DNA of 11,863 bases from a virus (Duplodnaviria; Heunggongvirae; Uroviricota; Caudoviricetes). The notes under the pieces were generated by a model. The model was not told the DNA's origin. It did no database searches and was given only the letters and a program-made list of their open reading frames with translations. Shown one piece after another: positions 1 through 10,842 of this stretch. The position numbers were made by a program, and so were the translations under genes. How positions within the stretch are numbered: the first letter of the stretch is position 1; each line of letters starts with the position of its first letter. The stretch is taken from the IMG/VR virus record IMGVR_UViG_2693429779_000014, positions 1-11,863 of that record. One strand, given 5' to 3'.

Positions 1-183
1 TACACTAAATCAGTAAGTTGGCAGCATCACCCCGCCACAGAACAATTATTGCTTTTGCCGTTGATGACAATAAAGTTTTTATCGCAGGCGTATACCACGG
101 TGGGCAAATCTATGAAACCGATTTTTTATCCAGTGCACCGTAAAACCCCCATCCTTCAGGGCGTGGCGGATATCAAACTTTGG

Positions 184-1266
184 TCATTTTCTCTGGCTGA
201 TCTTTACCGGATAACCATCCCGAAGATCAATTAAGTGCTCCGGTTCAGAAGCAAACCATGCATAAGATCCCCACGCCAATTCTGGTATTGCCTTTTTAAA
301 AGGCAGAGCACTTCTGTCCATAAATGCCGTAAGGAATGCAAGATTTTTCTCGCTGAACCCAGCGTCAATAGCCAAATGAGTGAGAGTAACTTTTCGTTCC
401 CTGTTTATAGGCCCATCTGTCGCAACTACTTCAGTGAAAACTACAAGCATGTCCGAACCCGTTCGGTCCTCTCCCAAATCAATCAAAATAATATCTGGAA
501 GTGCTTTTGAGGCATCAATATTCAGCCCCAATGCTTTTGCCAATACATCATCCTGAGCAACAACTTTATTCCCGGATTCAGACAACCAGAGCACAGTTGG
601 ATTCTTAAGAAAATTAGGAGCAAAAACTTCGATGACGGCCTTAGCTATTGTACTTGACGGGCCCGGAGCTAAAGTTCTCTTCTCTCCATTTGGGAAAGTG
701 ACGACTACGGCATCAGCAGCAATCACTGCCCCTGATTTCAATAAACGCAACCTAGCAAGAGCGGCTTTGTTCAAATGATTTTCTTGCCAGGAACTTATTG
801 CACTCAGCAGCGAATCTCCTTCAAGCCCGGCATCAAAGAGTGCTGCAAAAGAGCGATTCAAACTGTAACGAGGACGAGAGGATGTGGTGGGTATACCTTT
901 ACGCTCAACAATTGCATTGCAAGGTATTAGGCCATTTTTTATAGTTTCATCACGTATTGGCTCACGCGTATTTTCCGCATACCATGCATCAGCAGGCCTT
1001 ATCTTTTGTTTAGAGAAAGTCATCTTTACCCAGCTTTCTCTGGACGCATCATCAGTAAGAGCAGCCTGCGAATCTCCCATACTTACAACCTGGCTGGGCC
1101 TTATCCATCGCCCCAGCCCCTCAACCGCACCAGCATAAAACATGACAAAAATTGTTTTTGCAGCTATTTCCCGAATTAAATATCCACGATTCTCAGTCCC
1201 TTCAGGGAAAATTAATTGTAATCTTTCCCGGATAACATTCAATGGGGGAACAACAGGCAGATTCAT
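184..1266 (-). CDS. Unassigned 360-aa partner of the adjacent methyltransferase; putative restriction endonuclease-like protein (possibly BsuBI/PstI-like, not verifiable here)
   Basis: 360-aa minus-strand ORF. Its ATG (1266-1264) overlaps the TGA stop (1265-1263) of the upstream methyltransferase gene (ATGA), and a GGAG lies about 10 nt upstream inside the MTase 3' end. No catalytic motif can be assigned with certainty; the stretch DIILIDLGEDRTGSDMLVVFTEVVATD is compatible with a PD-(D/E)xK-type core. The functional call rests on operon context. Confidence 0.45.
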   Translation of the reverse strand: MNLPVVPPLNVIRERLQLIFPEGTENRGYLIREIAAKTIFVMFYAGAVEGLGRWIRPSQVVSMGDSQAALTDDASRESWVKMTFSKQKIRPADAWYAENTREPIRDETIKNGLIPCNAIVERKGIPTTSSRPRYSLNRSFAALFDAGLEGDSLLSAISSWQENHLNKAALARLRLLKSGAVIAADAVVVTFPNGEKRTLAPGPSSTIAKAVIEVFAPNFLKNPTVLWLSESGNKVVAQDDVLAKALGLNIDASKALPDIILIDLGEDRTGSDMLVVFTEVVATDGPINRERKVTLTHLAIDAGFSEKNLAFLTAFMDRSALPFKKAIPELAWGSYAWFASEPEHLIDLRDGYPVKISQRK

Positions 1267-3095
1267 GCAATCATCACTCCATAGAAACCAGCGATAGTTC
1301 TCTCAATAATCCGTCTGTGGACGCCAGCATCAATTAACGATTGAATCTCCATCACCTGCTCCAGAGAAGGCAACGGGATTGAATTCAATTCATAGGCCGA
1401 AACAGCAACACTTCCGCTTATACACCTGAACGCCCGATCGACAACATGCGAATTAAGTAGCATATCAATAACATCAGGGCGAACCGCAGAGAACAATCCG
1501 TTTGAATATACAATATTAATATGGTTTTCAACTACTACGCCACCAGTTTCATCTATAAATCCCTGAGGTAAAATTGCCGCTAAAATCCTTCTGTCCTGTT
1601 CCTTCGATGTTGTCCGCTGAACAAGCACACATTCAGATTTTGTCACAAGGAAACCCTGTTGTGGGGTTATATCGATATAGGGAACATGATTTTTTCTGTC
1701 TGCACTAAAACGAAAACCAGCTGAAGTTATTGATTCCGCCCAGACTAATGGGTAGCTATTTTTTCCTTTCGTCGTACGCAACTGCGACTTAAATCGATTC
1801 CAGACTAACTGACCTGTAGAGACTGAGTATCCCAGATCAGCTAAACGCGTAGACATCTGTTTTAATACATTAAGAAAACAGGCATCATCTTTAACGCGTG
1901 GCAAAAGCCACGTTGCTCCACCTTTTTCTATATCAACATTACCTATTTTCTCAATTTTTGCTTTGTTCAACCCCTTAGGGACAAGTGAGGATACCTGGGC
2001 CCGAACTTTATGTTCTCCCGCCTTGAATGCTGTCAACATTGTTTCCTGGAGAACATCGTCAAAGACCCCATCCCTGTCAGTGACGAAATCAAGGGCATAC
2101 GGAGTAGTTTTTTCGGTCAAAAGGGTTCGCAGCGCGGTGAAATACTGCCCACCAAGAAAAGAAGTTGGCGTAAGAAATGCAATAACTCCTGTTTTCTCTT
2201 TAACCATGCGAACAGCTAAGTCGGTGAACAATCCATATAGATTTGCATGACCAAATAACGAACGAGAATATTTTTCTCTCGTTTTAATATCGAGAGTGAC
2301 ACGTCCGTAAGGCGGATTCCCTACCACAAGATCATAACCAGAAAATTTATCTTGCTGAAGCGCATCAGCAACAATAATTGTATCTTCAGGCAATCTACGT
2401 TTTACCTTTACACATAGTGGCATTAGTACAGATTCGAGCAATACCAAACTCATCCAAGCCGCAAATGGATCGATTTCTATCCCCTTTAAACGACGACTGA
2501 TTCTCCTCAACATCCATTCAGGGGAAGACCCCTTGTCTTTTTTTAACATTCGAATGGCTACTGGTGCCAAAAATGCACCGCCACCACACGCAGGATCAAT
2601 AACCGATGCATGAGAAAAATCAACACCAGACTTTTCAGCCAGGTCCAAGAGACGCGCTACCAAAGGTGGGGGGGTATAGTAAGCCCCCAATTCCGAACGG
2701 TAAGCGGATGGCAGCATTACCGTATAAATTGACCCAATCAGATATCCAGCGTCCTCCGCCGGAAATTGAGCAATAAGCTCACCTGTTCGTTCAGCGAGCT
2801 CGCGTGCATCACATGGAATGTCTTCTATGTAAACAGTGTGCGGTACTGCCCTCATTTTAATGCTGCTTTTTTGCTTTTTTGCAAGGGTATCCCAATATGC
2901 AGCTACGATGCTGAAGCAGTATGAGCGGGCATGCATCAACCTTGACTGCCCGGTTTTGTAATTGCCCGCATAACCTTTGGCCATGGCTTTACAAGTTTGA
3001 TATCTTTCCAGATTAGAAAACTCATTATCTGTAAAAAAATCAAAATGTTGCACATTCATAATGTAAAATCCTAATGTATCAAACATGCGGGCCAT
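1263..3095 (-). CDS. N6-adenine DNA methyltransferase, gamma-class (Eco57I/TaqI-like catalytic domain with a C-terminal target-recognition region of about 250 aa)
   Basis: The translation carries GAYYTPP, then the SAM-binding motif I VIDPACGGGAFL, then the catalytic motif IV DLVVGNPPYG, in gamma-class order. The first ATG is at 3095; a better-placed start is the ATG at 3059 (MNVQHF...), which has AGGA 9 nt upstream. Confidence 0.85.
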   Translation of the reverse strand: MARMFDTLGFYIMNVQHFDFFTDNEFSNLERYQTCKAMAKGYAGNYKTGQSRLMHARSYCFSIVAAYWDTLAKKQKSSIKMRAVPHTVYIEDIPCDARELAERTGELIAQFPAEDAGYLIGSIYTVMLPSAYRSELGAYYTPPPLVARLLDLAEKSGVDFSHASVIDPACGGGAFLAPVAIRMLKKDKGSSPEWMLRRISRRLKGIEIDPFAAWMSLVLLESVLMPLCVKVKRRLPEDTIIVADALQQDKFSGYDLVVGNPPYGRVTLDIKTREKYSRSLFGHANLYGLFTDLAVRMVKEKTGVIAFLTPTSFLGGQYFTALRTLLTEKTTPYALDFVTDRDGVFDDVLQETMLTAFKAGEHKVRAQVSSLVPKGLNKAKIEKIGNVDIEKGGATWLLPRVKDDACFLNVLKQMSTRLADLGYSVSTGQLVWNRFKSQLRTTKGKNSYPLVWAESITSAGFRFSADRKNHVPYIDITPQQGFLVTKSECVLVQRTTSKEQDRRILAAILPQGFIDETGGVVVENHINIVYSNGLFSAVRPDVIDMLLNSHVVDRAFRCISGSVAVSAYELNSIPLPSLEQVMEIQSLIDAGVHRRIIERTIAGFYGVMIA

Positions 3096-3309
3096 AACAT
3101 CTCATGGTGGCGCATAGCAAACTGGCCCGAAGAATATCACGCACCAAGTCGATCTCATAACCCGTTATGACAATAAATCTTTGTAGCTGAACTCACTTGG
3201 TGATTTGTCAATCATTCCTGGCCTCCAGTTCGTCCTGAATCTCTTTATCGAGTTCACCGTATTTGTTAGTCCTCATCACTCACGACTTGACTTCCAGAAA
3301 TAACCTTGA

Positions 3310-3645
3310 TTATTCGGGGCTATATTTTGTCACCCTGCGTATCCGCGCTTTCGCATTACGCTCAATCTGGATTAGCTTTTCTATATTTTTTCGCCTTTCC
3401 CGCTCCTCCTGGCGCAAGAGCCTTACATCATCTGCCAGTCTGGTTTCTCTTTTCGCCACAGAGAGCATCCAGTCAAATGGCTCCACAACTGCACCGCAAA
3501 TTTTACAGCGGACCTGACGCTCTTTTTCGTCAACCCGGACAGAGGCGTGATGGCAATATGGTCTTTCCGATGGCTCATAAAGAAAATTAACCTGATTACG
3601 AGGGTTATCCTCTTTTACCGGAAATAAAACACTGAAATTCTGCAA
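3310..3645 (-). CDS. Hypothetical protein, probably the 3' remnant of a gene truncated by the IS3-associated deletion; contains a Cys/His cluster (CHH...CKIC)
   Basis: 111-aa ORF whose first codons (3645 down to about 3620) lie in IS-derived sequence, so the native N-terminus is likely lost. No recognisable family; the C-terminal half is Arg/Glu-rich and looks coiled. Confidence 0.25.
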   Translation of the reverse strand: MQNFSVLFPVKEDNPRNQVNFLYEPSERPYCHHASVRVDEKERQVRCKICGAVVEPFDWMLSVAKRETRLADDVRLLRQEERERRKNIEKLIQIERNAKARIRRVTKYSPE

Positions 3646-3741
3646 CTGCGTAAGGCGTTAAATGAAGCTCGCCTTGAGCGAGATATATTAAAAAAAGCAA
3701 CAGCGTATTTTGCACAGGAGTCGCTGAAAAATACGCGTTAA
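3620..3741 (+). pseudogene. IS3-family orfA, 3' fragment only
   Basis: Only about 40 C-terminal codons of OrfA are present; an upstream in-frame stop sits at 3617-3619. Confidence 0.6.
3690..3697 (+). promoter_or_regulatory. A7G slippery run in the orfA/orfB overlap (programmed -1 frameshift signal typical of IS3-family elements)
   Basis: AAAAAAAG at 3690-3697 lies where the orfA frame (stop 3739-3741) and the orfB frame (open from 3678) overlap. Confidence 0.5.
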
Positions 3742-3776
3742 TCGAACAATGGCGACAACAATTTCCCATTGAAGCG

Positions 3777-4595
3777 ATGTGTCAGGTATTTGGTGTATCC
3801 AGGAGCGGTTATTACAACTGGGTACAGCATGAACCCTCAGACAGAAAACAAAGTGATGAGCGGCTAAAACTGGAGATTAAGGTGGCACATATCCGCACTC
3901 GCGAAACATATGGAACCCGGCGGCTCCAGACGGAGCTGGCAGAGAATGGCATCATCGTTGGTCGTGACCGACTGGCACGTCTTCGTAAGGAGCTAAGGCT
4001 ACGCTGTAAGCAGAAACGCAAGTTCAGAGCGACTACGAACTCGAACCACAATCTGCCAGTTGCGCCAAATCTGCTGAACCAGACGTTCGCTCCTACAGCA
4101 CCAAATCAGGTCTGGGTGGCGGACCTGACGTATGTTGCCACACAGGAGGGATGGTTGTACCTCGCTGGCATCAAAGATGTTTATACGTGCGAAATTGTCG
4201 GCTACGCCATGGGAGAGCGCATGACAAAAGAGCTGACAGGTAAAGCCCTGTTTATGGCGCTCAGGAGCCAGCGCCCACCTGCCGGGCTAATCCACCACTC
4301 TGATCGAGGTTCACAGTACTGCGCATACGATTACCGGGTCATACAGGAGCAGTCTGGTCTGAAAACATCAATGTCGCGTAAAGGTAACTGTTACGACAAC
4401 GCTCCGATGGAAAGCTTCTGGGGAACGCTGAAAAATGAGAGCCTGAGCCACTATCGTTTTAATAACCGGGATGAAGCCATCTCAGTAATACGGGAATACA
4501 TTGAGATTTTCTACAATCGTCAGCGTCGTCACTCTCGTCTGGGGAATATCTCCCCGGCAGCCTTCAGGGAAAAATATCATCAGATGGCTGCTTAA
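3777..4595 (+). CDS. IS3-family transposase OrfB (DDE integrase catalytic core)
   Basis: 272 aa from the first ATG; the frame is open from 3678, consistent with expression as an OrfAB fusion. Contains the D..D..E context (...VWVADLTYV..., ...HHSDRGSQY..., ...YDNAPMESFWGTLKNE...) and the C-terminal ...RQRRHSRLGNISPAAFREKY. Confidence 0.85.
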   Translation: MCQVFGVSRSGYYNWVQHEPSDRKQSDERLKLEIKVAHIRTRETYGTRRLQTELAENGIIVGRDRLARLRKELRLRCKQKRKFRATTNSNHNLPVAPNLLNQTFAPTAPNQVWVADLTYVATQEGWLYLAGIKDVYTCEIVGYAMGERMTKELTGKALFMALRSQRPPAGLIHHSDRGSQYCAYDYRVIQEQSGLKTSMSRKGNCYDNAPMESFWGTLKNESLSHYRFNNRDEAISVIREYIEIFYNRQRRHSRLGNISPAAFREKYHQMAA

Positions 4596-5008
4596 AAAAA
4601 GAACAAATGGTAGTGTCCGCTATTGCCAGTACACCTCATAGCTTCGCTCTTCCGGCACTCGCGACAGATTATATTCAGGCGCCTGTCGTAGCGGCGTATT
4701 TCTCCGTCTGGTAATGACCAGATAAGGTCAGGATCAACCACAACCGGTTTCTTCACCTTTACCCTCGATAGCTTTTTGCGGGCGTTTTGCCAGTCTTTAT
4801 GAGCCTGTTCAGAGGGAAATACCCCGTAGCCAGAATTATATACATCACCACTTGCGACCAGTTCTATGCATAAGCGACCGACAGACGCACGACTGATACC
4901 TGTTTCATCTGACAACTGCCGAATCGTGACCCGACCGTCCTGATGCACGAGTTCCACAATTCGCGTCTTCAGTTCTTCCCGCTGTTCGGGAGTAAAAGGT
5001 TTCGCCAT
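4592..5008 (-). CDS. Ren-like phage protein, copy A; 3' end altered next to the IS
   Basis: Starts MAKPFTPEQREEL... with AGGAGG upstream. Paralogous to the 5907..6389 ORF through ...DPDLIWSLPDGEIRRYDR..NIICRECRKSE, after which the two diverge. The ECRKSE region resembles the ECRQSAAMKRVL C-terminus I recall for lambda Ren (from memory). Confidence 0.5.
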   Translation of the reverse strand: MAKPFTPEQREELKTRIVELVHQDGRVTIRQLSDETGISRASVGRLCIELVASGDVYNSGYGVFPSEQAHKDWQNARKKLSRVKVKKPVVVDPDLIWSLPDGEIRRYDRRLNIICRECRKSEAMRCTGNSGHYHLFFF

Positions 5009-5022
5009 AAATCCTCCTGAAA

Positions 5023-5769
5023 CTACTTAACAACCCTCGAATGGCTAACATTCGGACGCCAGCTCTCCCAGTTAAAATTCACCCAGCGCCCGCCGTTCAT
5101 GACCATGCGATCCATCACCCGCTCGCCGAGCAATGTTTTCATCACCTCATAGTTCAGGTTTGTCAGCATCCCCACGCTGCGCATCGACGCTGTCCGGCGA
5201 TCAACAATCTGGTGCAGCACCACCTGCTCGTTTTTCGTCTCGCGCTGAATGCCAATTTCATCAAGAACCAGCAGATCCACTTCGCACAGCTCCCGCAAAA
5301 ATTTTTCGCCTGACTGCCCGTCGTCATAGCTGGCGTGCAGGGCGCTCATAACATCAGCCACGGTAACCACAATCACTGTCTGACCGTCTTTCAGCAGGCG
5401 ATTCCCGATAGCTGCCGCTAAGTGATTCTTCCCGGTACCAGGTTTTCCGCTGAACGCAAAATTTGTACACCCGGTCATCAGTTCATCGGCGATGGATTTC
5501 GCCTGGCTTAACGCGTATCGCTGGCCGTCGTTCTGCACCTGGTAATTCGCAAACGAGCATTTACGGTGCAACGGCTGGATGCCTGAGCGATTCAGAATTT
5601 TTTCCACCCGCAACTGGCGATTCAGGCGGTTGATCTCCTCGCTACGTTTCTGGCCTTCAGCAAGTTGCCACTCGCGCCACTCCGCTACCGTTCTGAATGG
5701 GGCGGTTACATGTGGCGGGGTCAGTCGGCGGATGCGTTCCAGAACGCCGCCTGTCGCAATATTTTTCAT
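5023..5769 (-). CDS. DnaC-like AAA+ helicase loader (phage replication protein), copy A
   Basis: 248 aa. Walker A FSGKPGTGKNHLAAAIG and Walker B DLLVLDEIG, with end-to-end collinearity to the E. coli DnaC sequence as I recall it (...NRSGIQPLH...CSFANY...MLTNLN...LGERVMDRM...). GGGGG-type SD upstream. Confidence 0.9.
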   Translation of the reverse strand: MKNIATGGVLERIRRLTPPHVTAPFRTVAEWREWQLAEGQKRSEEINRLNRQLRVEKILNRSGIQPLHRKCSFANYQVQNDGQRYALSQAKSIADELMTGCTNFAFSGKPGTGKNHLAAAIGNRLLKDGQTVIVVTVADVMSALHASYDDGQSGEKFLRELCEVDLLVLDEIGIQRETKNEQVVLHQIVDRRTASMRSVGMLTNLNYEVMKTLLGERVMDRMVMNGGRWVNFNWESWRPNVSHSRVVK

Positions 5770-5775
5770 GGTCCG

Positions 5776-6000
5776 TTACCCCCTGAAGCCTGGCGGGATC
5801 GCACTGTCCGGCAACGAGACGGTGTTAACCTGTCGGAGCAACGTCTCAGGCCGAACACCTTTCGGCGCGAACAGGCCCTGGTATTCATTGGCGATGCTGT
5901 GTCGAATCACCTGCTCAGGTGTAAAACCCTGCTGACGGAATTTTTCCAGTTCCCGTATCGCCCCGTTAGCGCCCTGCTCCGTTCGAATCGGTTTTCGCAA
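5776..6000 (-). pseudogene. 3' remnant of a second initiator gene (DnaT-like C-terminal domain only)
   Basis: The 74-aa frame ends ...VNTVSLPDSAIPPGFRG*, matching the C-terminus of the full-length initiator at 7905..8969 (...VNHISEPDTEIPPGFRG*). The N-terminal domain and iteron region are missing. It sits 6 nt upstream of DnaC-like copy A, the same spacing as in the intact module. Confidence 0.6.
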
Positions 6001-6389
6001 TGCCTGAGTACACGCTGCATAACTTCACTCTTCCGGCACTCGCGACAGATTATGTTCTGATGTCTGTCGTAGCGGCGTATTTCTCCGTCTGGTAATGACC
6101 AGATAAGGTCAGGATCAACCACAGATGGTTTCTTCAGATTTGCCCTTGAGAGTTTTTTGCGGGCGTTTTGCCAGTCCTTACGAGCCTGTTCAGACGGGAA
6201 TAACCCGTAGCCAGAGTTGTATACATCCCCACTGGCAACCAGCTCTCTGGCGAGAACGCTTATTAAATATCTTGTCGCCCCGGTTTTAGCTTCCAGTTGT
6301 CGTAACGTCTCGCGCCCACTCTGGCGTACGAGTTCAACAACCTGCCCCTTAATTTTTTCCCGCTCTTCCTGTGTAAATACTTTTGCCAT
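5907..6389 (-). CDS. Ren-like phage protein, copy B
   Basis: Start at ATG 6389 (MAKVFTQEEREKIK...), 15 nt after the upstream gene's stop. Contains ...ECRKSEVMQRVL..., but the frame then reads on into the initiator remnant with no stop until 5907, so the 3' end is probably not native. Confidence 0.55.
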   Translation of the reverse strand: MAKVFTQEEREKIKGQVVELVRQSGRETLRQLEAKTGATRYLISVLARELVASGDVYNSGYGLFPSEQARKDWQNARKKLSRANLKKPSVVDPDLIWSLPDGEIRRYDRHQNIICRECRKSEVMQRVLRHCENRFERSRALTGRYGNWKNSVSRVLHLSR

Positions 6390-6404
6390 AAGCGCCCCCG
6401 GCAA

Positions 6405-7130
6405 TCACTTTTCCGACACAATACGACCGGAGGAATCGACAATCTGTCGAACAATATCCCGGTGCTTGTTCAGCTCCCGCAACGCGGCGCAGACACGCTC
6501 CCACTTCTGGACATGACTTTTCGCCCGACGCAGTTCGCGGTTTGCCATATGCAGCGATGGTAAAACCAGGTCATCCGCTTGCGTTTCGGTGAACGATGGC
6601 AACGACTGCACAATGTCCGCCACAGTTTCTGTTTTAATTTCTTCCTGTGTTGCAGCTTCCTGTACCGGTAACGCAACACCTGCTGGCTGAGGAAAGACTT
6701 TACCATCCGTTTCCGCTATGGATGCGGCTTTCGGCTCTGCCGGTAAATCAGCGCCCGGTATGCAGTACCGAAATTTACCGCCCTGATTCACGCGAATCAG
6801 ACGCCCTTTGCTGATTGCCATGGCCAGCGATGAATTCGCCCGGCGGGAGGTAATCCCGAACATCAGTGCCAGCTCATCCGCCGTTTGTGGGCCATGTTGT
6901 TCAATCGCCTCAGTCAGCATTTGCGCTGTCACTTTCGGTACCGGTGACACTGGTTCACTTTCACCAGCCTGAATCAGCCACCACATCGAACCCTTGTTAT
7001 CCGCTTCACCACGGCGCTTCAGTTTCCACAGTTCGTTGACCGCATCTTCACGGCTGATTCCAAGGCGGGACGCCACCACATGTGAAGAGGCTCTTTTCAG
7101 TGCTTTCAGTGCGTCAAATACAGTTTCCAT
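6405..7130 (-). CDS. Hypothetical phage protein with two N-terminal winged-helix-like segments and an acidic linker
   Basis: The six-frame track starts at 7148 (TTG), but the ATG at 7130 ([12 protein letters not shown]...) has GGAGG 8 nt upstream. Two wHTH-like segments (...[24 protein letters not shown]... and ...[31 protein letters not shown]...). Lies between the DnaC-like and Ren-like genes. Confidence 0.6.
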
Positions 7131-7151
7131 TAAAACATCCTCCAACAAAAA

Positions 7152-7898
7152 TTACTTCACAACTCCCGGAAAGCTGACATTTGAACGCCAGCTATCCCAG
7201 TTAAACGTCACCCACCGACAACCGTTCATGGTCATGCGGTCCATAATCCTCTCACCAAGAAGCGTGCTCATTGCGGCATGATTCAGGTTTGTTAACATCC
7301 CGACACTGCACAGTGATGCTGTCCGGCGATCAATTATCTGGTGCAATACCACCTGCTCGTTTTTCGTCTCCCGCTGAATGCCTATTTCATCCAGGACCAG
7401 CAAATCAACCCCGCAAAGCTCCTGTAAAAATTTTTCACCGGATTTGCCGTTGTCGTAGCTGTCATGCAACACGCTCATGACATCAGACTCGGTGACGATA
7501 ATCACGCTGCGCCCCTTCGCCATCAGCCGGTTACCCATCGCCGCTGCAAGGTGATTTTTCCCGGTGCCGGTTTTACCGCTGAACACAAAATTCGTGCACC
7601 CGGTCATCAGTTCGTCAGCTATGGATTTGGCCTGGCTCAGCGCGTATTTTTGCCCGTCGTTCTGCACCTGATAATTCGCAAACGAGCATTTGCTGTGCAG
7701 AGGCTGGATGCCCGAACGATTCAGGATTTTTTCCACCCGCAACTGGCGATTCTGGCGGTTAATCTCCTCGCTGCGTTTTCGTCCTTCAGCAAGTTGCCAT
7801 TCCCGCCACTCCTCCACCGTCCGGTACGGTGGAACCGCCCCCTGTGGTGCAAGTCTGTGAATACGTTCAAGAACCCCGGCTGCCGCAATGTTTTTCAT
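7152..7898 (-). CDS. DnaC-like AAA+ helicase loader (phage replication protein), copy B
   Basis: 248 aa. Walker A FSGKTGTGKNHLAAAMG and Walker B DLLVLDEIG; about 85% identical to copy A at protein level but with many synonymous DNA differences. Starts 6 nt after the initiator stop. Confidence 0.9.
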   Translation of the reverse strand: MKNIAAAGVLERIHRLAPQGAVPPYRTVEEWREWQLAEGRKRSEEINRQNRQLRVEKILNRSGIQPLHSKCSFANYQVQNDGQKYALSQAKSIADELMTGCTNFVFSGKTGTGKNHLAAAMGNRLMAKGRSVIIVTESDVMSVLHDSYDNGKSGEKFLQELCGVDLLVLDEIGIQRETKNEQVVLHQIIDRRTASLCSVGMLTNLNHAAMSTLLGERIMDRMTMNGCRWVTFNWDSWRSNVSFPGVVK

Positions 7899-7904
7899 GC
7901 CACA

Positions 7905-8969
7905 TCACCCCCTGAATCCCGGCGGAATTTCGGTATCCGGTTCAGAAATATGATTCACACAACGCTGGTTGTTCGTGCCGCTTACCGGGAGCAACCAGGG
8001 GTTTTCAAAATTCCGGTCCGGCCCAAAAAACGTCGTCGCTCGCTGAACAAATTCCGTTCCCGCTTTCCCGGTCGCCGCCAGGTATCTCGCGTAACGCCTC
8101 ACACCATCCAGCATGGTCTCTGGTGGCACCCCCTCGCGCAATCTGGCCTTCCAGGCACTGAATGCGGATTTCTTCGGGTTTGCCCCGGCACGCAACGGGT
8201 ATTCCCGCCAGACCTGTTCGAACACATCCGGATAATCCACTCGTCCCACAGGCTGCCCGGTGTTTTCCGGGGCTACCCGATCGGCTTCCCGCTGAATGGC
8301 GGAATCGGCTTCAGGCTGCTGCAGTTGGAGTGATTGCTCCGGCCTTGCGGTCATCACCTGCTGCACAGCGCCCGAATCGGCTTTCAGCGCATACGCTGAA
8401 TCGGCTTCCGGTGTCGAGCCTGCTGGCTGACCAGGATTGACGGTCTGAACATCCCCTGCCTGGTTCGTGGCGTTTTTTACGCCATGGACCATAGTGTTTT
8501 GATCTTCTTTATCTGTATCTTTATCTGTATCTGTCGTGACTCGTCGTGACATGTGCGTGACATTTCGTGACGCGCCGTGACAATCGCCATTTTGTTCCCG
8601 CTTTCTTTCCCTCTCTCGCTGCGCCCTCTTGCGCTCTGCAGGAGATTTTGCGGTTTGCGAAATATTGCCGTTGTCCTCTTTAAGCACCTGGCGTTTTTCC
8701 CATCCAGTGATTAAATCACCATCAAGTACCCGCCCCTGCATCGTCTGCAAAATTGAATCAATTACCTCTTCTGTCACGTCGAGCGCACTTGCCAAATCTT
8801 CTGTCGTGACATCAATGTGACCTCGCGTGACATTTCGTGACGCGCTCACCAGGAGGTGGATATACACTGCCATCACTGTTGCAATTGGCTGCCCTGACAC
8901 CCTGGCAATTGTTCGCCACTTAGGGTCATTTGGCATGTCATGCCATAATCTGAGCCAGGCGTTAGCCAT
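7905..8969 (-). CDS. Phage replication initiator-like protein (YdaU-like N-terminal domain, low-complexity linker, DnaT-like C-terminal domain)
   Basis: The track starts at GTG 8975; the ATG at 8969 (MANAWLRLWHDMPNDPKW...) has GAGG 5 nt upstream. The C-terminus ...SEPDTEIPPGFRG matches the end of E. coli primosomal protein DnaT as I recall it. The gene body contains the iteron clusters listed below, and a DnaC-like gene follows immediately. Confidence 0.75.
   Translation of the reverse strand: MANAWLRLWHDMPNDPKWRTIARVSGQPIATVMAVYIHLLVSASRNVTRGHIDVTTEDLASALDVTEEVIDSILQTMQGRVLDGDLITGWEKRQVLKEDNGNISQTAKSPAERKRAQRERERKREQNGDCHGASRNVTHMSRRVTTDTDKDTDKEDQNTMVHGVKNATNQAGDVQTVNPGQPAGSTPEADSAYALKADSGAVQQVMTARPEQSLQLQQPEADSAIQREADRVAPENTGQPVGRVDYPDVFEQVWREYPLRAGANPKKSAFSAWKARLREGVPPETMLDGVRRYARYLAATGKAGTEFVQRATTFFGPDRNFENPWLLPVSGTNNQRCVNHISEPDTEIPPGFRG
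8535..8581. repeat. Iteron cluster 2: five direct CGTGAC repeats at 10-11 bp phasing, preceded by the tandem repeat TTTATCTGTATC x2 (8508-8531)
   Basis: CGTGAC begins at 8535, 8545, 8556, 8566 and 8576, all in the same orientation. The cluster is inside the initiator's linker-coding region. Confidence 0.55.
8805..8845. repeat. Iteron cluster 1: four direct (C/T)GTGAC repeats at 10-11 bp phasing, plus one inverted copy (GTCACG, 8773-8778)
   Basis: The repeats begin at 8805, 8816, 8826 and 8836. The 21-mer GCGTGACATTTCGTGACGCGC is exactly repeated at 8825-8845 and 8555-8575. Confidence 0.5.
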
Positions 8970-9040
8970 ACTCACCTCTTCTGATACCGAATCTTTTTAC
9001 TCACGAGTTGCCGGGAGCGATTCGATATGGCTATTGTCAG

Positions 9041-9762: not shown

Positions 9763-9825
9763 AATAGCACTGTTATTTTTAAAAGTAAATAGTGATGCTA
9801 TTTCAAAGTGATTAGCAATCTTATT
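9763..9825. promoter_or_regulatory. OR-like region: three operator-like 15-bp sites with divergent promoters
   Basis: Sites AATAGCACTGTTATT (9763-9777), AATAGTGATGCTATT (9788-9802) and a weaker ATTAGCAATCTTATT (9811-9825), spaced 24-25 bp. Rightward promoter candidates: -35 TTTCAA (9801-9806) and -10 TAGAAT (9825-9830). Leftward candidates: -35 TTTACT (complement of 9784-9789) and -10 TATTAA (complement of 9761-9766). Confidence 0.5.
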
Positions 9826-9837
9826 AGAATTGGATGT

Positions 9838-10338
9838 ATGAAAAGAAAATCATTGTCAGACACCGACCTCAACGCCGCCAGAAGACTGAAAGAAATCTGG
9901 ATGGCAAAGAAATCTCAGTTGGGATTGACTCAGGAACGTGCGGCGGAAATTATGGGGTTTTCAACACAAGGGGCGGTAAGTCACTACCTAAATGGTCAAA
10001 CCCCACTAAACCTTGAGGCTGTTCTAAAGTTTGCTGGCTTACTGAAAGTTCCCCCTGAGTCAATCAGGCCAGACATGGTAGATTTGCTGCAAATTGCAAG
10101 GATGTATTGTCGAGAACCACAGCAAGATAACATAGTCGCATTACCAGCAGACACAGAACAAACAGAGGATGAACTACCGTTTGCCGTAGAGCCGATGGAA
10201 CGAGATTTAATCCATACGTTCAGAGCTTTTCCGAAAGAAGATCAAGAACACATGCTTCAGGAGATGAAAGATAAAAAAGAATCAATGGATCGTACGGTTG
10301 CGCGGTGGTTAGCTGCACAAAAAGGCCGTCGCGCCTAA
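9838..10338 (+). CDS. cI/PaaR-like HTH (XRE-family) repressor; candidate prophage immunity repressor and regulator of the downstream toxin-antitoxin pair
   Basis: The track starts at GTG 9808; the ATG at 9838 (MKRKSLSDTDLNAARRLKEIWMAKKSQLGLTQERAAEIMGFSTQGAVSHYLNG...) gives 166 aa. It has an N-terminal HTH (LTQERAAEIMGFSTQGAVSHY), is divergent from the Cro-like gene, and carries an acidic C-terminal region. Confidence 0.7.
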   Translation: MKRKSLSDTDLNAARRLKEIWMAKKSQLGLTQERAAEIMGFSTQGAVSHYLNGQTPLNLEAVLKFAGLLKVPPESIRPDMVDLLQIARMYCREPQQDNIVALPADTEQTEDELPFAVEPMERDLIHTFRAFPKEDQEHMLQEMKDKKESMDRTVARWLAAQKGRRA

Positions 10339-10357: not shown

Positions 10358-10552
10358 ATGAGTACAGTCCTTTCCCCAATGGTTTCAGAATTTGAGACAG
10401 TTGAGCAAGAAAATAGTTACAACGAATGGCTGCGGGCCAAAGTAGCAGCAAGCCTCGCGGATCCCCGCCCGGCGATTCCGCATGATGAGGTAATGGCGGA
10501 AATGGAACAAATTATTGCCCAAATTGCTGCTGCAACTCACAGAGGTGAATAA
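10358..10552 (+). CDS. Small antitoxin, PaaA2-like (partner of the ParE-family toxin)
   Basis: 64 aa with GAGGAG 7 nt upstream. The stop overlaps the toxin start (TAATG at 10550-10554). The sequence ...SPMVSEFETVEQENSYNEWLRAKVA... resembles the PaaA2 antitoxin of E. coli O157 prophages as I recall it. Confidence 0.6.
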   Translation: MSTVLSPMVSEFETVEQENSYNEWLRAKVAASLADPRPAIPHDEVMAEMEQIIAQIAAATHRGE

Positions 10553-10842
10553 TGTTACCCGTTTTATGGCTACCATCTGCTCGTGATGATTTGCGCCAGA
10601 TCGTAGCCTACATAGCTAAAGAAAATCCCGCGGCAGCACGCAGAATGAAAATTCGAATTGAAACATCCGTTTTGCCGCTCACAGAGCATCCTTACCTGTA
10701 TCCTCCAAGCGAGCGAGTTCTTGGTCTTCGTGAAATTGTAACTCATCCTAACTACATCATCCTTTACCGAGTAACAGCATCAAGCATAGAAGTAGTAAAT
10801 ATTGTGCATTCTCGAAGACAGTATCCAGGCAAAAACAGTTAA
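10552..10842 (+). CDS. parE: ParE/RelE-superfamily toxin (ParE2-like)
   Basis: 96 aa with the characteristic pattern W.P.A..DL..I..YIA..NP.AA......I......L...P..G.......GLREIV.....I.LYRV......V..I.H.RR. Translationally coupled to the upstream antitoxin. Confidence 0.8.
   Translation: MLPVLWLPSARDDLRQIVAYIAKENPAAARRMKIRIETSVLPLTEHPYLYPPSERVLGLREIVTHPNYIILYRVTASSIEVVNIVHSRRQYPGKNS

What the first reader, a model, noticed from the sequence alone, without database searches (positions are those of the whole stretch)
184..3095. Lower-GC cargo operon: gamma-class m6A methyltransferase coupled to an unassigned 360-aa partner
The MTase has unambiguous m6A motifs (YYTP, DPACGGG, NPPYG) and a long C-terminal region that could specify the target. 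Its stop overlaps the start of a 360-aa gene (ATGA), so the two are co-translated. The partner has no motif I can assign with confidence; it may be a type II restriction endonuclease (a PstI/BsuBI-like enzyme is one possibility) or the effector of an undescribed methylation-linked defence pair. The operon sits next to an IS scar at the edge of the replication/nin-type region, where lambdoid phages commonly carry morons and defence cargo.
Basis: partly seen in the sequence, partly recalled or inferred. Interest (0 to 1): 0.65.

Follow-up and report, generated by a model that had tools for sequence, protein, structure and literature searches.

The report
Ordinary PstI-family restriction-modification gene pair
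The two genes are a standard restriction-modification system, an adenine DNA methyltransferase followed by a PstI/BsuBI-family cutting enzyme, carried on a decayed prophage of what is almost certainly Shigella sonnei; public databases already annotate it this way, so it is ordinary.

Summary
Two minus-strand ORFs, 1263..3095 (methyltransferase) and 184..1266 (360 aa), overlap by ATGA. They have lower GC (0.44 against 0.52 for the neighbouring replication genes) and lie between IS remnants.

The "unassigned" partner is easy to assign. It matches both Pfam domains of the BsuBI/PstI restriction endonuclease family (E 1e-30 and 9e-45) and a PADLOC type II REase model end to end (3e-128). It also matches the SdaI crystal structure by sequence (2e-16) and by predicted fold (Foldseek 1e-16). 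It keeps every near-invariant residue of the family.

The methyltransferase is a gamma-class N6-adenine enzyme. Its catalytic and C-terminal regions are homologous to the CTGCAG methylase of Stx phages. Its true start is probably Met13, giving 598 aa.

The methyltransferase-then-nuclease pair recurs in 99 of 104 related loci, on chromosomes, plasmids, lambdoid prophages and P2-like prophages. RefSeq already names the identical protein "BsuBI/PstI family type II restriction endonuclease". The exact sequences occur on at least 1000 contigs, mostly Shigella sonnei.

Verdict: an already-known kind of type II restriction-modification cassette carried as prophage cargo. Its recognition site could not be determined. 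CTGCAG or a relative is inferred, not shown. Interest is low.

The parts
1263..3095 (-). Gamma-class N6-adenine DNA methyltransferase ORF (610 aa as an ORF; probable real start is the ATG at 3059, giving 598 aa)
   Evidence: Pfam Eco57I PF07669 1.7e-13 and N6_Mtase PF02384 2.1e-09. PADLOC MTase_II PDLC03338 1.8e-300 over 601 of 604 positions. Relatives are nearly all 598 aa. AGGA lies 9 nt before the ATG at 3059. One residue differs from RefSeq WP_000113425.1.
2670..2681 (-). MTase motif X region (YYTP, aa 139-142)
   Evidence: Located in the translation
2577..2597 (-). MTase motif I, AdoMet binding (DPACGGG, aa 167-173)
   Evidence: Located in the translation
2304..2318 (-). MTase motif IV, catalytic NPPY(G) (aa 260-264)
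   Evidence: Located in the translation. This region aligns with TaqI MTase structures.
1266..2360 (-). MTase catalytic-to-C-terminal region, including the presumed target-recognition domain (about aa 246-610 of the ORF)
   Evidence: 26% identity over 355 aa with the 489-aa M.BsuBI/EcoGIII-type methylase of an Stx phage, E 6e-27. TIGR02987 matches aa 285-588.
1263..1266 (-). ATGA overlap: MTase stop and REase start (translational coupling)
   Evidence: Read directly. GGAG lies 10 nt before the REase ATG. The same 4-nt overlap is seen in the Serratia, Kluyvera and Citrobacter loci.
184..1266 (-). BsuBI/PstI-family type II restriction endonuclease (360 aa)
   Evidence: Pfam PF17728 1.2e-30 and PF06616 9.3e-45. 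PADLOC REase_II PDLC03589 2.8e-128. SdaI 2ixs matches by phmmer at 1.8e-16 and by Foldseek at 1.2e-16, probability 1.00. Identical to RefSeq WP_001053102.1.
751..1239 (-). REase N-terminal HTH DNA-binding domain (aa 10-172)
   Evidence: Pfam BsuBI_PstI_RE_N. The model is helical there.
220..705 (-). REase C-terminal PD-(D/E)XK-type catalytic domain (aa 188-349). Family near-invariant residues are P257-D258 (D258 codon at 493..495), E279 (430..432), V281, G285, R291 and R318.
   Evidence: Pfam BsuBI_PstI_RE. Conservation across 60 diverse members, including active R.EcoGIII and SdaI.
3096..3309 (-). Intergenic region upstream of the MTase; a promoter is presumed here but was not identified
   Evidence: No sigma-70-like site passed the scan on this strand. 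A perfect TTGACA at 3211..3206 has no -10 at 16-18 nt (read).
3631..4640 (+). Right border of the island: 5'-truncated IS600 (orfB at 3777..4595)
   Evidence: 99.9% identical to annotated IS600 copies. NCBIfam IS3 transposase 1.1e-99. The breakpoint against the reference prophage is at 3630/3631.
1..31 (-). Left border of the island: IS1 terminal repeat, which cuts a RelE/ParE-family toxin gene (remnant 33..143 +)
   Evidence: 100% match at 56,603 places in E. coli genomes, lying just before an IS1A transposase CDS. The breakpoint against the reference is at 31/32.

Best explanation
This is a conventional two-gene type II restriction-modification system of the PstI/BsuBI family, carried as cargo (a moron) in the post-replication, nin-like region of a lambdoid prophage. 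In this genome, almost certainly Shigella sonnei, the prophage has been broken up by IS1 and IS600. The upstream gene encodes a gamma-class N6-adenine methyltransferase that methylates the recognition site on host and prophage DNA. The downstream gene encodes a homologue of PstI, BsuBI, EcoGIII and SdaI, with an N-terminal helix-turn-helix DNA-binding domain and a C-terminal PD-(D/E)XK-type nuclease domain, that cuts the same site when it is unmethylated. The nuclease gene starts inside the stop codon of the methylase gene (ATGA) with its own GGAG. It is therefore translated from the same mRNA, downstream of the methylase, a common way of ensuring that protection accompanies restriction. Shown here: family membership of both proteins, intact conserved residues, the SdaI-like fold, conserved gene pairing, and the mobile prophage context. 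Inferred: that both enzymes are active, that the site is CTGCAG or a close relative (about 55% for CTGCAG itself), and that the system restricts incoming phage and plasmid DNA and stabilises the island by post-segregational killing.
For: REase: both Pfam BsuBI/PstI domains lie far above their gathering scores (152 and 107 bits against 27). The PADLOC REase_II model matches full length at 2.8e-128. SdaI is the only solved relative by sequence (1.8e-16) and by predicted fold (pLDDT 82; Foldseek 1.2e-16, probability 1.00; the next hits are McrC, MspJI, Bse634I and FokI). Every column conserved at 85% or more across 60 diverse family members is kept by the window protein, including P257-D258, E279-x-V281, G285, R291 and R318. 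MTase: the motifs are in gamma order, the PADLOC MTase_II model matches full length at 1.8e-300, and the region from NPPY to the C-terminus shares 26% identity (E 6e-27) with the M.BsuBI/EcoGIII-type enzyme. That enzyme's CTGC(m6A)G specificity is experimentally established (PMC3893438, PMC6602927). Pairing: the MTase lies immediately upstream on the same strand in 99 of 104 related loci, in Burkholderia chromosomes and plasmids, a Serratia P2-like prophage, and Kluyvera and Citrobacter lambdoid prophages. Annotation: RefSeq names the identical protein a BsuBI/PstI family type II restriction endonuclease. Maintenance: the exact sequences occur on at least 1000 contigs, mostly S. sonnei. A PADLOC survey counts 982 type II systems in 994 S. 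sonnei genomes (PMC13293514, Table 1).
Against: No activity data for this subfamily were found, and no methylome of a carrier was located in the held literature. Identity to characterised members is only about 26-27%, so the recognition site cannot be transferred with confidence. No promoter was recognised in the 214-nt upstream region. IS600 has cut the cassette off from the phage early operon, so expression in this genome is unproven. The global TM-score to SdaI is low (0.40-0.44), probably because the two domains sit differently in the model (pTM 0.55).
Confidence: 0.9

Rival explanations
1. The pair is a decayed remnant. The methyltransferase acts as an orphan, possibly regulatory, enzyme, and the nuclease is silent or inactive because the cassette sits in an IS-ridden prophage fragment.
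For: The island is bounded by an IS1 end and a truncated IS600. The neighbouring toxin gene and the zinc-ribbon gene are both truncated. No promoter was recognised upstream. In some Stx phages the related BsuBI-type nuclease is frameshifted while the methylase is intact.
Against: Both ORFs are full length. The REase is identical to the copy in an intact-looking E. coli prophage, and the MTase differs by one residue. All family near-invariant residues are kept. The exact sequence is maintained on at least 1000 contigs.
Confidence: 0.08
2. The pair is an undescribed methylation-linked defence system whose 360-aa partner is not a classical restriction nuclease.
For: None was found beyond the absence of an NCBIfam hit for the 360-aa protein.
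Against: Pfam, PADLOC, the PDB sequence search and the fold search all place it in the BsuBI/PstI/SdaI nuclease family across its full length. The MTase's hits to BREX PglX and MADS models lie far below their cut-offs (37 bits against 900, 21 against 720), and no other BREX or MADS genes are present.
Confidence: 0.02
3. It is a true type II R-M of this family, but its recognition sequence is not CTGCAG. The long 598-aa/360-aa subfamily would have its own, possibly new, specificity.
For: Identity to the CTGCAG enzymes is only 26-27%. The REase is about 40 aa longer and the MTase about 110 aa longer than the BsuBI/EcoGIII type. PADLOC models this subfamily separately from the 317- and 324-position REase models. 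SdaI, in the same family, recognises a different, longer site (established knowledge).
Against: Every characterised member I know of recognises CTGCAG or CCTGCAGG (PMC3893438, PMC6602927, PMC6053426; SdaI from my own knowledge). The MTase C-terminal region is homologous to that of the CTGCAG methylase.
Confidence: 0.4

Closest known systems
EcoGIII R-M system of Stx2a prophages (E. coli O104:H4, O145, O111), a PstI/BsuBI isoschizomer that methylates and cleaves CTGCAG
   Same: Same REase family (PF06616) and same type of gamma m6A MTase. The order is M then R with overlapping genes. It is carried as cargo on a lambdoid prophage of E. coli/Shigella and is documented to restrict lambda-like phages (PMC3893438; PMC6602927).
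   Different: Only 27% (REase) and 26% (MTase) identity. The proteins are shorter (317 and 489 aa against 360 and 598). It sits next to cI in the immunity region rather than after the replication genes. There is no DNA-level similarity.
SdaI restriction endonuclease (PDB 2ixs)
   Same: The only solved structure related by sequence (1.8e-16) and by predicted fold (1.2e-16). It shares the two-domain plan and the conserved PD...E.V...G...R residues.
   Different: About 18-25% identity. SdaI has Lys at the position where this protein and the family consensus have Ala. SdaI recognises an 8-bp site (my own knowledge).
PstI and BsuBI, the founding members of the family
   Same: Pfam names both domains after them, and the window protein matches both domains over nearly their whole length.
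   Different: From my own knowledge they are shorter, about 316-326 aa, with MTases of about 500 aa.
The identical RefSeq proteins WP_001053102.1 and WP_000113425.1 (E. coli FDAARGOS_943 prophage; Shigella sonnei)
   Same: The REase is 100% identical and the MTase differs at one residue. The DNA is 99.9% identical over 3.6 kb.
   Different: In that E. coli genome the surrounding prophage is far more complete, running from tail genes to integrase, with only an IS21 insertion and three frameshifted genes. Here the cassette is bounded by IS1 and IS600.

Membership tests
BsuBI/PstI family type II restriction endonuclease (Pfam PF17728 + PF06616) | Both family domains (N-terminal HTH, C-terminal nuclease) above Pfam gathering scores | tested here: met
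   106.6 and 152.2 bits against a cut-off of 27, covering 135/140 and 151/154 profile positions
BsuBI/PstI family type II restriction endonuclease (Pfam PF17728 + PF06616) | Conserved catalytic-core residues of the family (PD ... E-x-V ... G ... R) | tested here: met
   P257, D258, E279, V281, G285, R291 and R318 are each conserved in 93-98% of 60 diverse members, including active R.EcoGIII and SdaI. All are present in the window protein.
BsuBI/PstI family type II restriction endonuclease (Pfam PF17728 + PF06616) | SdaI-like two-domain fold with a restriction-endonuclease core | tested here: met
   AlphaFold2 model with pLDDT 82. The top Foldseek hit is 2ixs at E 1.2e-16, probability 1.00. The global TM-score is only 0.40-0.44, attributed to domain orientation.
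BsuBI/PstI family type II restriction endonuclease (Pfam PF17728 + PF06616) | Adjacent cognate N6-adenine methyltransferase | tested here: met
   ATGA-overlapping MTase upstream. The same arrangement is found in 99 of 104 related loci.
BsuBI/PstI family type II restriction endonuclease (Pfam PF17728 + PF06616) | Site-specific cleavage within a CTGCAG-type palindrome | not testable with these tools
   No biochemical or methylome data for this subfamily were found in the held literature.
Gamma-class N6-adenine DNA methyltransferase of a type II R-M | Motif order X (YYTP), then I (DPACGGG), then IV (NPPY), followed by a C-terminal target-recognition region | tested here: met
   The motifs lie at aa 139, 167 and 260. 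The C-terminal 355 aa are homologous to M.BsuBI/EcoGIII-type. PADLOC MTase_II matches full length at 1.8e-300.
Gamma-class N6-adenine DNA methyltransferase of a type II R-M | m6A methylation of the cognate site | not testable with these tools
   Needs a methylome or an in-vitro assay
Type I R-M (the RefSeq name 'HsdM family') | HsdS specificity and HsdR restriction subunits encoded alongside HsdM | tested here: not met
   No HsdS- or HsdR-like ORF is present in the window or in relatives' loci. The partner is a type II nuclease. The 'HsdM family' label is a generic superfamily name.
BREX PglX / MADS / type IIG methyltransferase-nuclease fusions | Score above the NCBIfam cut-off and presence of the other system genes or a fused nuclease domain | tested here: not met
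   PglX models score 16-37 bits against cut-offs of 400-900, and MAD2 scores 21 against 720. No other BREX or MADS genes are present.
EcoGIII system of Stx phages (same system, not merely the same family) | High identity to M.EcoGIII and R.EcoGIII | tested here: not met
   26-27% identity with different lengths, and no megablast match to any phage record

The most novel reading that the evidence does not exclude
The long subfamily (598-aa methylase plus 360-aa nuclease), which is widespread in Proteobacteria and nearly universal in Shigella sonnei, has not been characterised biochemically and may recognise a sequence other than CTGCAG. It could then yield a new type II specificity. Its persistence, intact, inside an IS-shredded prophage could also be a clean natural example of an R-M pair surviving by addiction after its carrier has decayed.
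Probability: 0.3. Interest if true: 0.3.

Novelty: already known. Interest (0 to 1): 0.12.

Why it matters
It matters little for discovery. It is one more prophage-borne type II restriction-modification system, and standard annotation (PGAP, Pfam, PADLOC) already recognises it. It has modest practical relevance. If active, it is probably the main type II barrier to DNA uptake and phage infection in Shigella sonnei, so knowing its site would help with transformation protocols and with phage-therapy host-range predictions. It also illustrates how R-M cassettes travel as morons at the same slot in lambdoid and P2-like prophages and outlive the phage that brought them.

Tried and rejected
(1) A megablast of the cassette against 50,697 phage records found nothing. 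Only a protein-level search revealed the distant Stx-phage relatives.

(2) I worried that the nuclease was dead, because SdaI Lys251 aligns with Ala in the window protein. I rejected this. Active R.EcoGIII has Thr there and the family consensus is Ala, so that lysine is not a family invariant.

(3) The scan of species-representative genomes did not find the source organism (best hit 68%). The exact-sequence look-up did, pointing to Shigella sonnei.

(4) Seven literature searches for a measured motif for this subfamily gave nothing usable (and paper look-ups). The Pseudomonas syringae CTGCAG system spans only 2.4 kb, so it is the short BsuBI type rather than this subfamily. The SdaI structure paper is not held.

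(5) Counting CTGCAG in the window gave 2 sites in 11.9 kb and none in the cassette. About 3 and 0.7 would be expected by chance, so this is uninformative.

(6) The promoter scan of the upstream intergenic region found no site on the coding strand.

(7) The upstream 111-aa zinc-ribbon ORF was considered as a possible controller protein. I rejected this because it has no PADLOC or NCBIfam match, it is absent from the Serratia, Kluyvera, Citrobacter and Burkholderia cassettes, and it is truncated here.
Full report
**What is there.** The stop codon of the first overlaps the start codon of the second as ATGA at 1263..1266. A GGAG lies 10 nt before the second start. GC content is 0.436 over the two genes against 0.524 over the neighbouring replication genes.

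One detail needs correcting. Among 120 listed relatives of the methyltransferase, almost all are 598 aa and align from the window protein's Met13. An AGGA sits 9 nt before that ATG (3059), whereas the ATG at 3095 has no comparable ribosome-binding site. Some Shigella and E. coli records already annotate the 598-aa form.

**What the 360-aa partner is.** It is not hard to assign.

- Pfam places it in the BsuBI/PstI restriction endonuclease family through both family domains. The N-terminal HTH domain PF17728 matches at E 1.2e-30. The C-terminal nuclease domain PF06616 matches at E 9.3e-45. Each covers nearly the whole profile.
- PADLOC's type II REase model PDLC03589 matches end to end at 2.8e-128.
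- The only related solved structure is the restriction enzyme SdaI (2ixs), found by sequence at 1.8e-16.
- An AlphaFold2 model built on 48 homologues (mean pLDDT 82) finds SdaI as its only significant Foldseek hit, at 1.2e-16 and probability 1.00. Weak hits to other PD-(D/E)XK restriction enzymes follow: McrC, MspJI, Bse634I and FokI.
- The global TM-score to SdaI is low (0.40-0.44). I attribute this to the relative placement of the two domains in the model (pTM 0.55).

**Is the nuclease intact?** The SdaI alignment raised a concern, because SdaI Lys251 aligns with Ala282 of the window protein. I aligned the window protein with 57 full-length representatives from clusters at 50% identity, with the biochemically active R.EcoGIII of an Stx2a phage, and with the SdaI fragment. 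At that position R.EcoGIII has Thr and the family consensus is Ala, so the lysine is peculiar to SdaI. The near-invariant columns of the family are P257-D258, E279-x-V281, G285, R291, R318, W337 and P342 in the nuclease domain, and R101-E102 and R105 in the N-terminal domain. The window protein keeps all of them. Nothing in the sequence suggests an inactive enzyme.

**The methyltransferase.**

- It matches the Pfam Eco57I and N6_Mtase domains, and TaqI methylase structures around the NPPY region.
- It matches PADLOC MTase_II model PDLC03338 over 601 of 604 positions at 1.8e-300.
- From just before NPPY to the C-terminus it shares 26% identity over 355 residues (E 6e-27) with the 489-aa M.BsuBI/EcoGIII-type methylase of Stx phages.
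- Its hits to BREX PglX and MADS models fall far below the curated cut-offs, and no other genes of those systems are present.
- The RefSeq label "HsdM family" is a generic superfamily name. No HsdS or HsdR is present.

**The pair is a conserved, mobile module.** Across 80 genome loci and 24 viral contigs retrieved with the nuclease, a homologue of the methylase lies immediately upstream on the same strand in 99 of 104 (median gap between hits 9 nt). Of the five exceptions, two are contig ends, one is a partial nuclease gene with no methylase detected, and two have the methylase hit displaced.

The same pair occurs in several settings:

- a Burkholderia chromosome;
- Burkholderia and other plasmids;
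- a Serratia P2-like prophage, between the replication gene gpA and the portal gene;
- Kluyvera and Citrobacter lambdoid prophages at 86-89% identity, in the same slot as here, after the replication genes and before RusA/DUF968 and the lysis genes.

The 4-nt overlap is kept in the enterobacterial copies. The nuclease family has about 1000 clusters at 50% identity with E of 0.001 or better.

**Where this copy sits.**

- Window 32..3630 is 99.9% identical (4 substitutions) to a prophage of E. coli FDAARGOS_943. There the cassette lies between a zinc-ribbon hypothetical, DUF977, DnaC-like and replisome-organiser genes on one side and a ParD/ParE pair, DUF968, RusA and Q on the other.
- RefSeq annotates the identical 360-aa protein there as "BsuBI/PstI family type II restriction endonuclease".
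- Only 2 of 5426 complete E. coli genomes carry the cassette. However, the exact protein sequences occur on at least 1000 contigs, named mostly Shigella sonnei.
- A PADLOC survey reports 982 type II systems in 994 S. sonnei genomes and calls the species highly uniform in its R-M content (PMC13293514, Table 1). That this is the same system is my inference.
- In the window the cassette is an island between an IS1 end (1..31, cutting the ParE-family toxin gene) and a 5'-truncated IS600 (from 3631, removing 13 codons of the zinc-ribbon gene). Both R-M genes have survived this decay intact.

**How it most likely works.** The methylase modifies the adenine of its recognition site on resident DNA. 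The nuclease, translated from the same mRNA immediately downstream of the methylase, cuts unmodified copies of the site on incoming DNA. Loss of the cassette would expose the chromosome to residual nuclease, the post-segregational killing typical of type II systems. That would help explain why the pair persists while its neighbours decay.

Family membership, residue conservation, fold, pairing and context are shown here. Activity, site and biological effect are inferred.

For the site, every characterised relative I could document recognises CTGCAG: EcoGIII in PMC3893438 and PMC6602927, and a Pseudomonas syringae system in PMC6053426. SdaI recognises the extended CCTGCAGG, which I state from my own knowledge. 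At 26-27% identity, and with both proteins longer than the BsuBI type, I put CTGCAG itself at only about 55%.

**Comparison with what is known, and novelty.** The closest characterised system in the same host group is EcoGIII of Stx2a prophages. It belongs to the same family, has the same gene order and is also prophage cargo. But it is only distantly related, its proteins are shorter, and it sits in the immunity region. The present cassette is a separate, long subfamily that PADLOC models on its own. A fused methylase-nuclease form of the family also exists: PDLC03359 matches both window proteins.

The kind of system, the family and even this exact protein are already in public annotation, so I rate the finding "already known" with low interest. 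The one open point is the untested specificity of the long subfamily.

**Verdict.** Its alternative (an undescribed defence pair) is not supported.

Noticed in passing
window 1..143: Bases 1..31 are an outward-facing IS1 terminal repeat. It has inserted into a RelE/ParE-family toxin gene, leaving only its last 36 codons (33..143, + strand). In the E. coli reference prophage that toxin and its ParD antitoxin are intact.
   Followed up: yes
window 3310..4640: A 5'-truncated IS600 (orfA tail from 3631, orfB at 3777..4595) replaces the first 13 codons of a 118-aa zinc-ribbon hypothetical gene (remnant 3310..3630, minus strand). The ORF finder's TTG start at 3645 is an artefact of the junction.
   Followed up: yes
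window 4592..8975: Two partial lambdoid replication modules lie in tandem. The DnaC-like genes 5023..5769 and 7152..7898 share 78% nucleotide identity. The DUF977-like genes 4592..5008 and 5907..6404 share about 88% over 240 nt. A 74-aa C-terminal fragment of a replisome organiser lies at 5776..6000. This looks like a recombination joint between two prophages.
   Followed up: partly
window 10358..10842: A RelB/RelE toxin-antitoxin pair (64 and 96 aa, with overlapping genes) lies directly downstream of the cI-like repressor gene (9808..10338). This is another moron-type cargo in the immunity region.
   Followed up: partly
window 3059..3095: The annotated 610-aa MTase start is probably 12 codons too far upstream. 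Relatives are 598 aa, and the ATG at 3059 has an AGGA 9 nt before it.
   Followed up: yes
window 3096..3309: No sigma-70-like promoter was recognised upstream of the MTase on the coding strand. A perfect TTGACA at 3211..3206 has no -10 hexamer at 16-18 nt. How the cassette is transcribed after IS600 cut it off from the phage early operon is unclear.
   Followed up: partly
window 184..3095 (PADLOC model PDLC03359): One 840-position PADLOC 'MTase_II' model matches the window's MTase with its N-terminal part and the window's REase with its C-terminal part. This shows that a fused methylase-nuclease form of this family exists elsewhere.
   Followed up: no
L006 3824..4778 (Escherichia phage ArgO145): In some Stx phages the BsuBI-type nuclease gene is frameshifted while the adjacent methylase is intact. 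These are natural examples of the family decaying to an orphan methylase.
   Followed up: no
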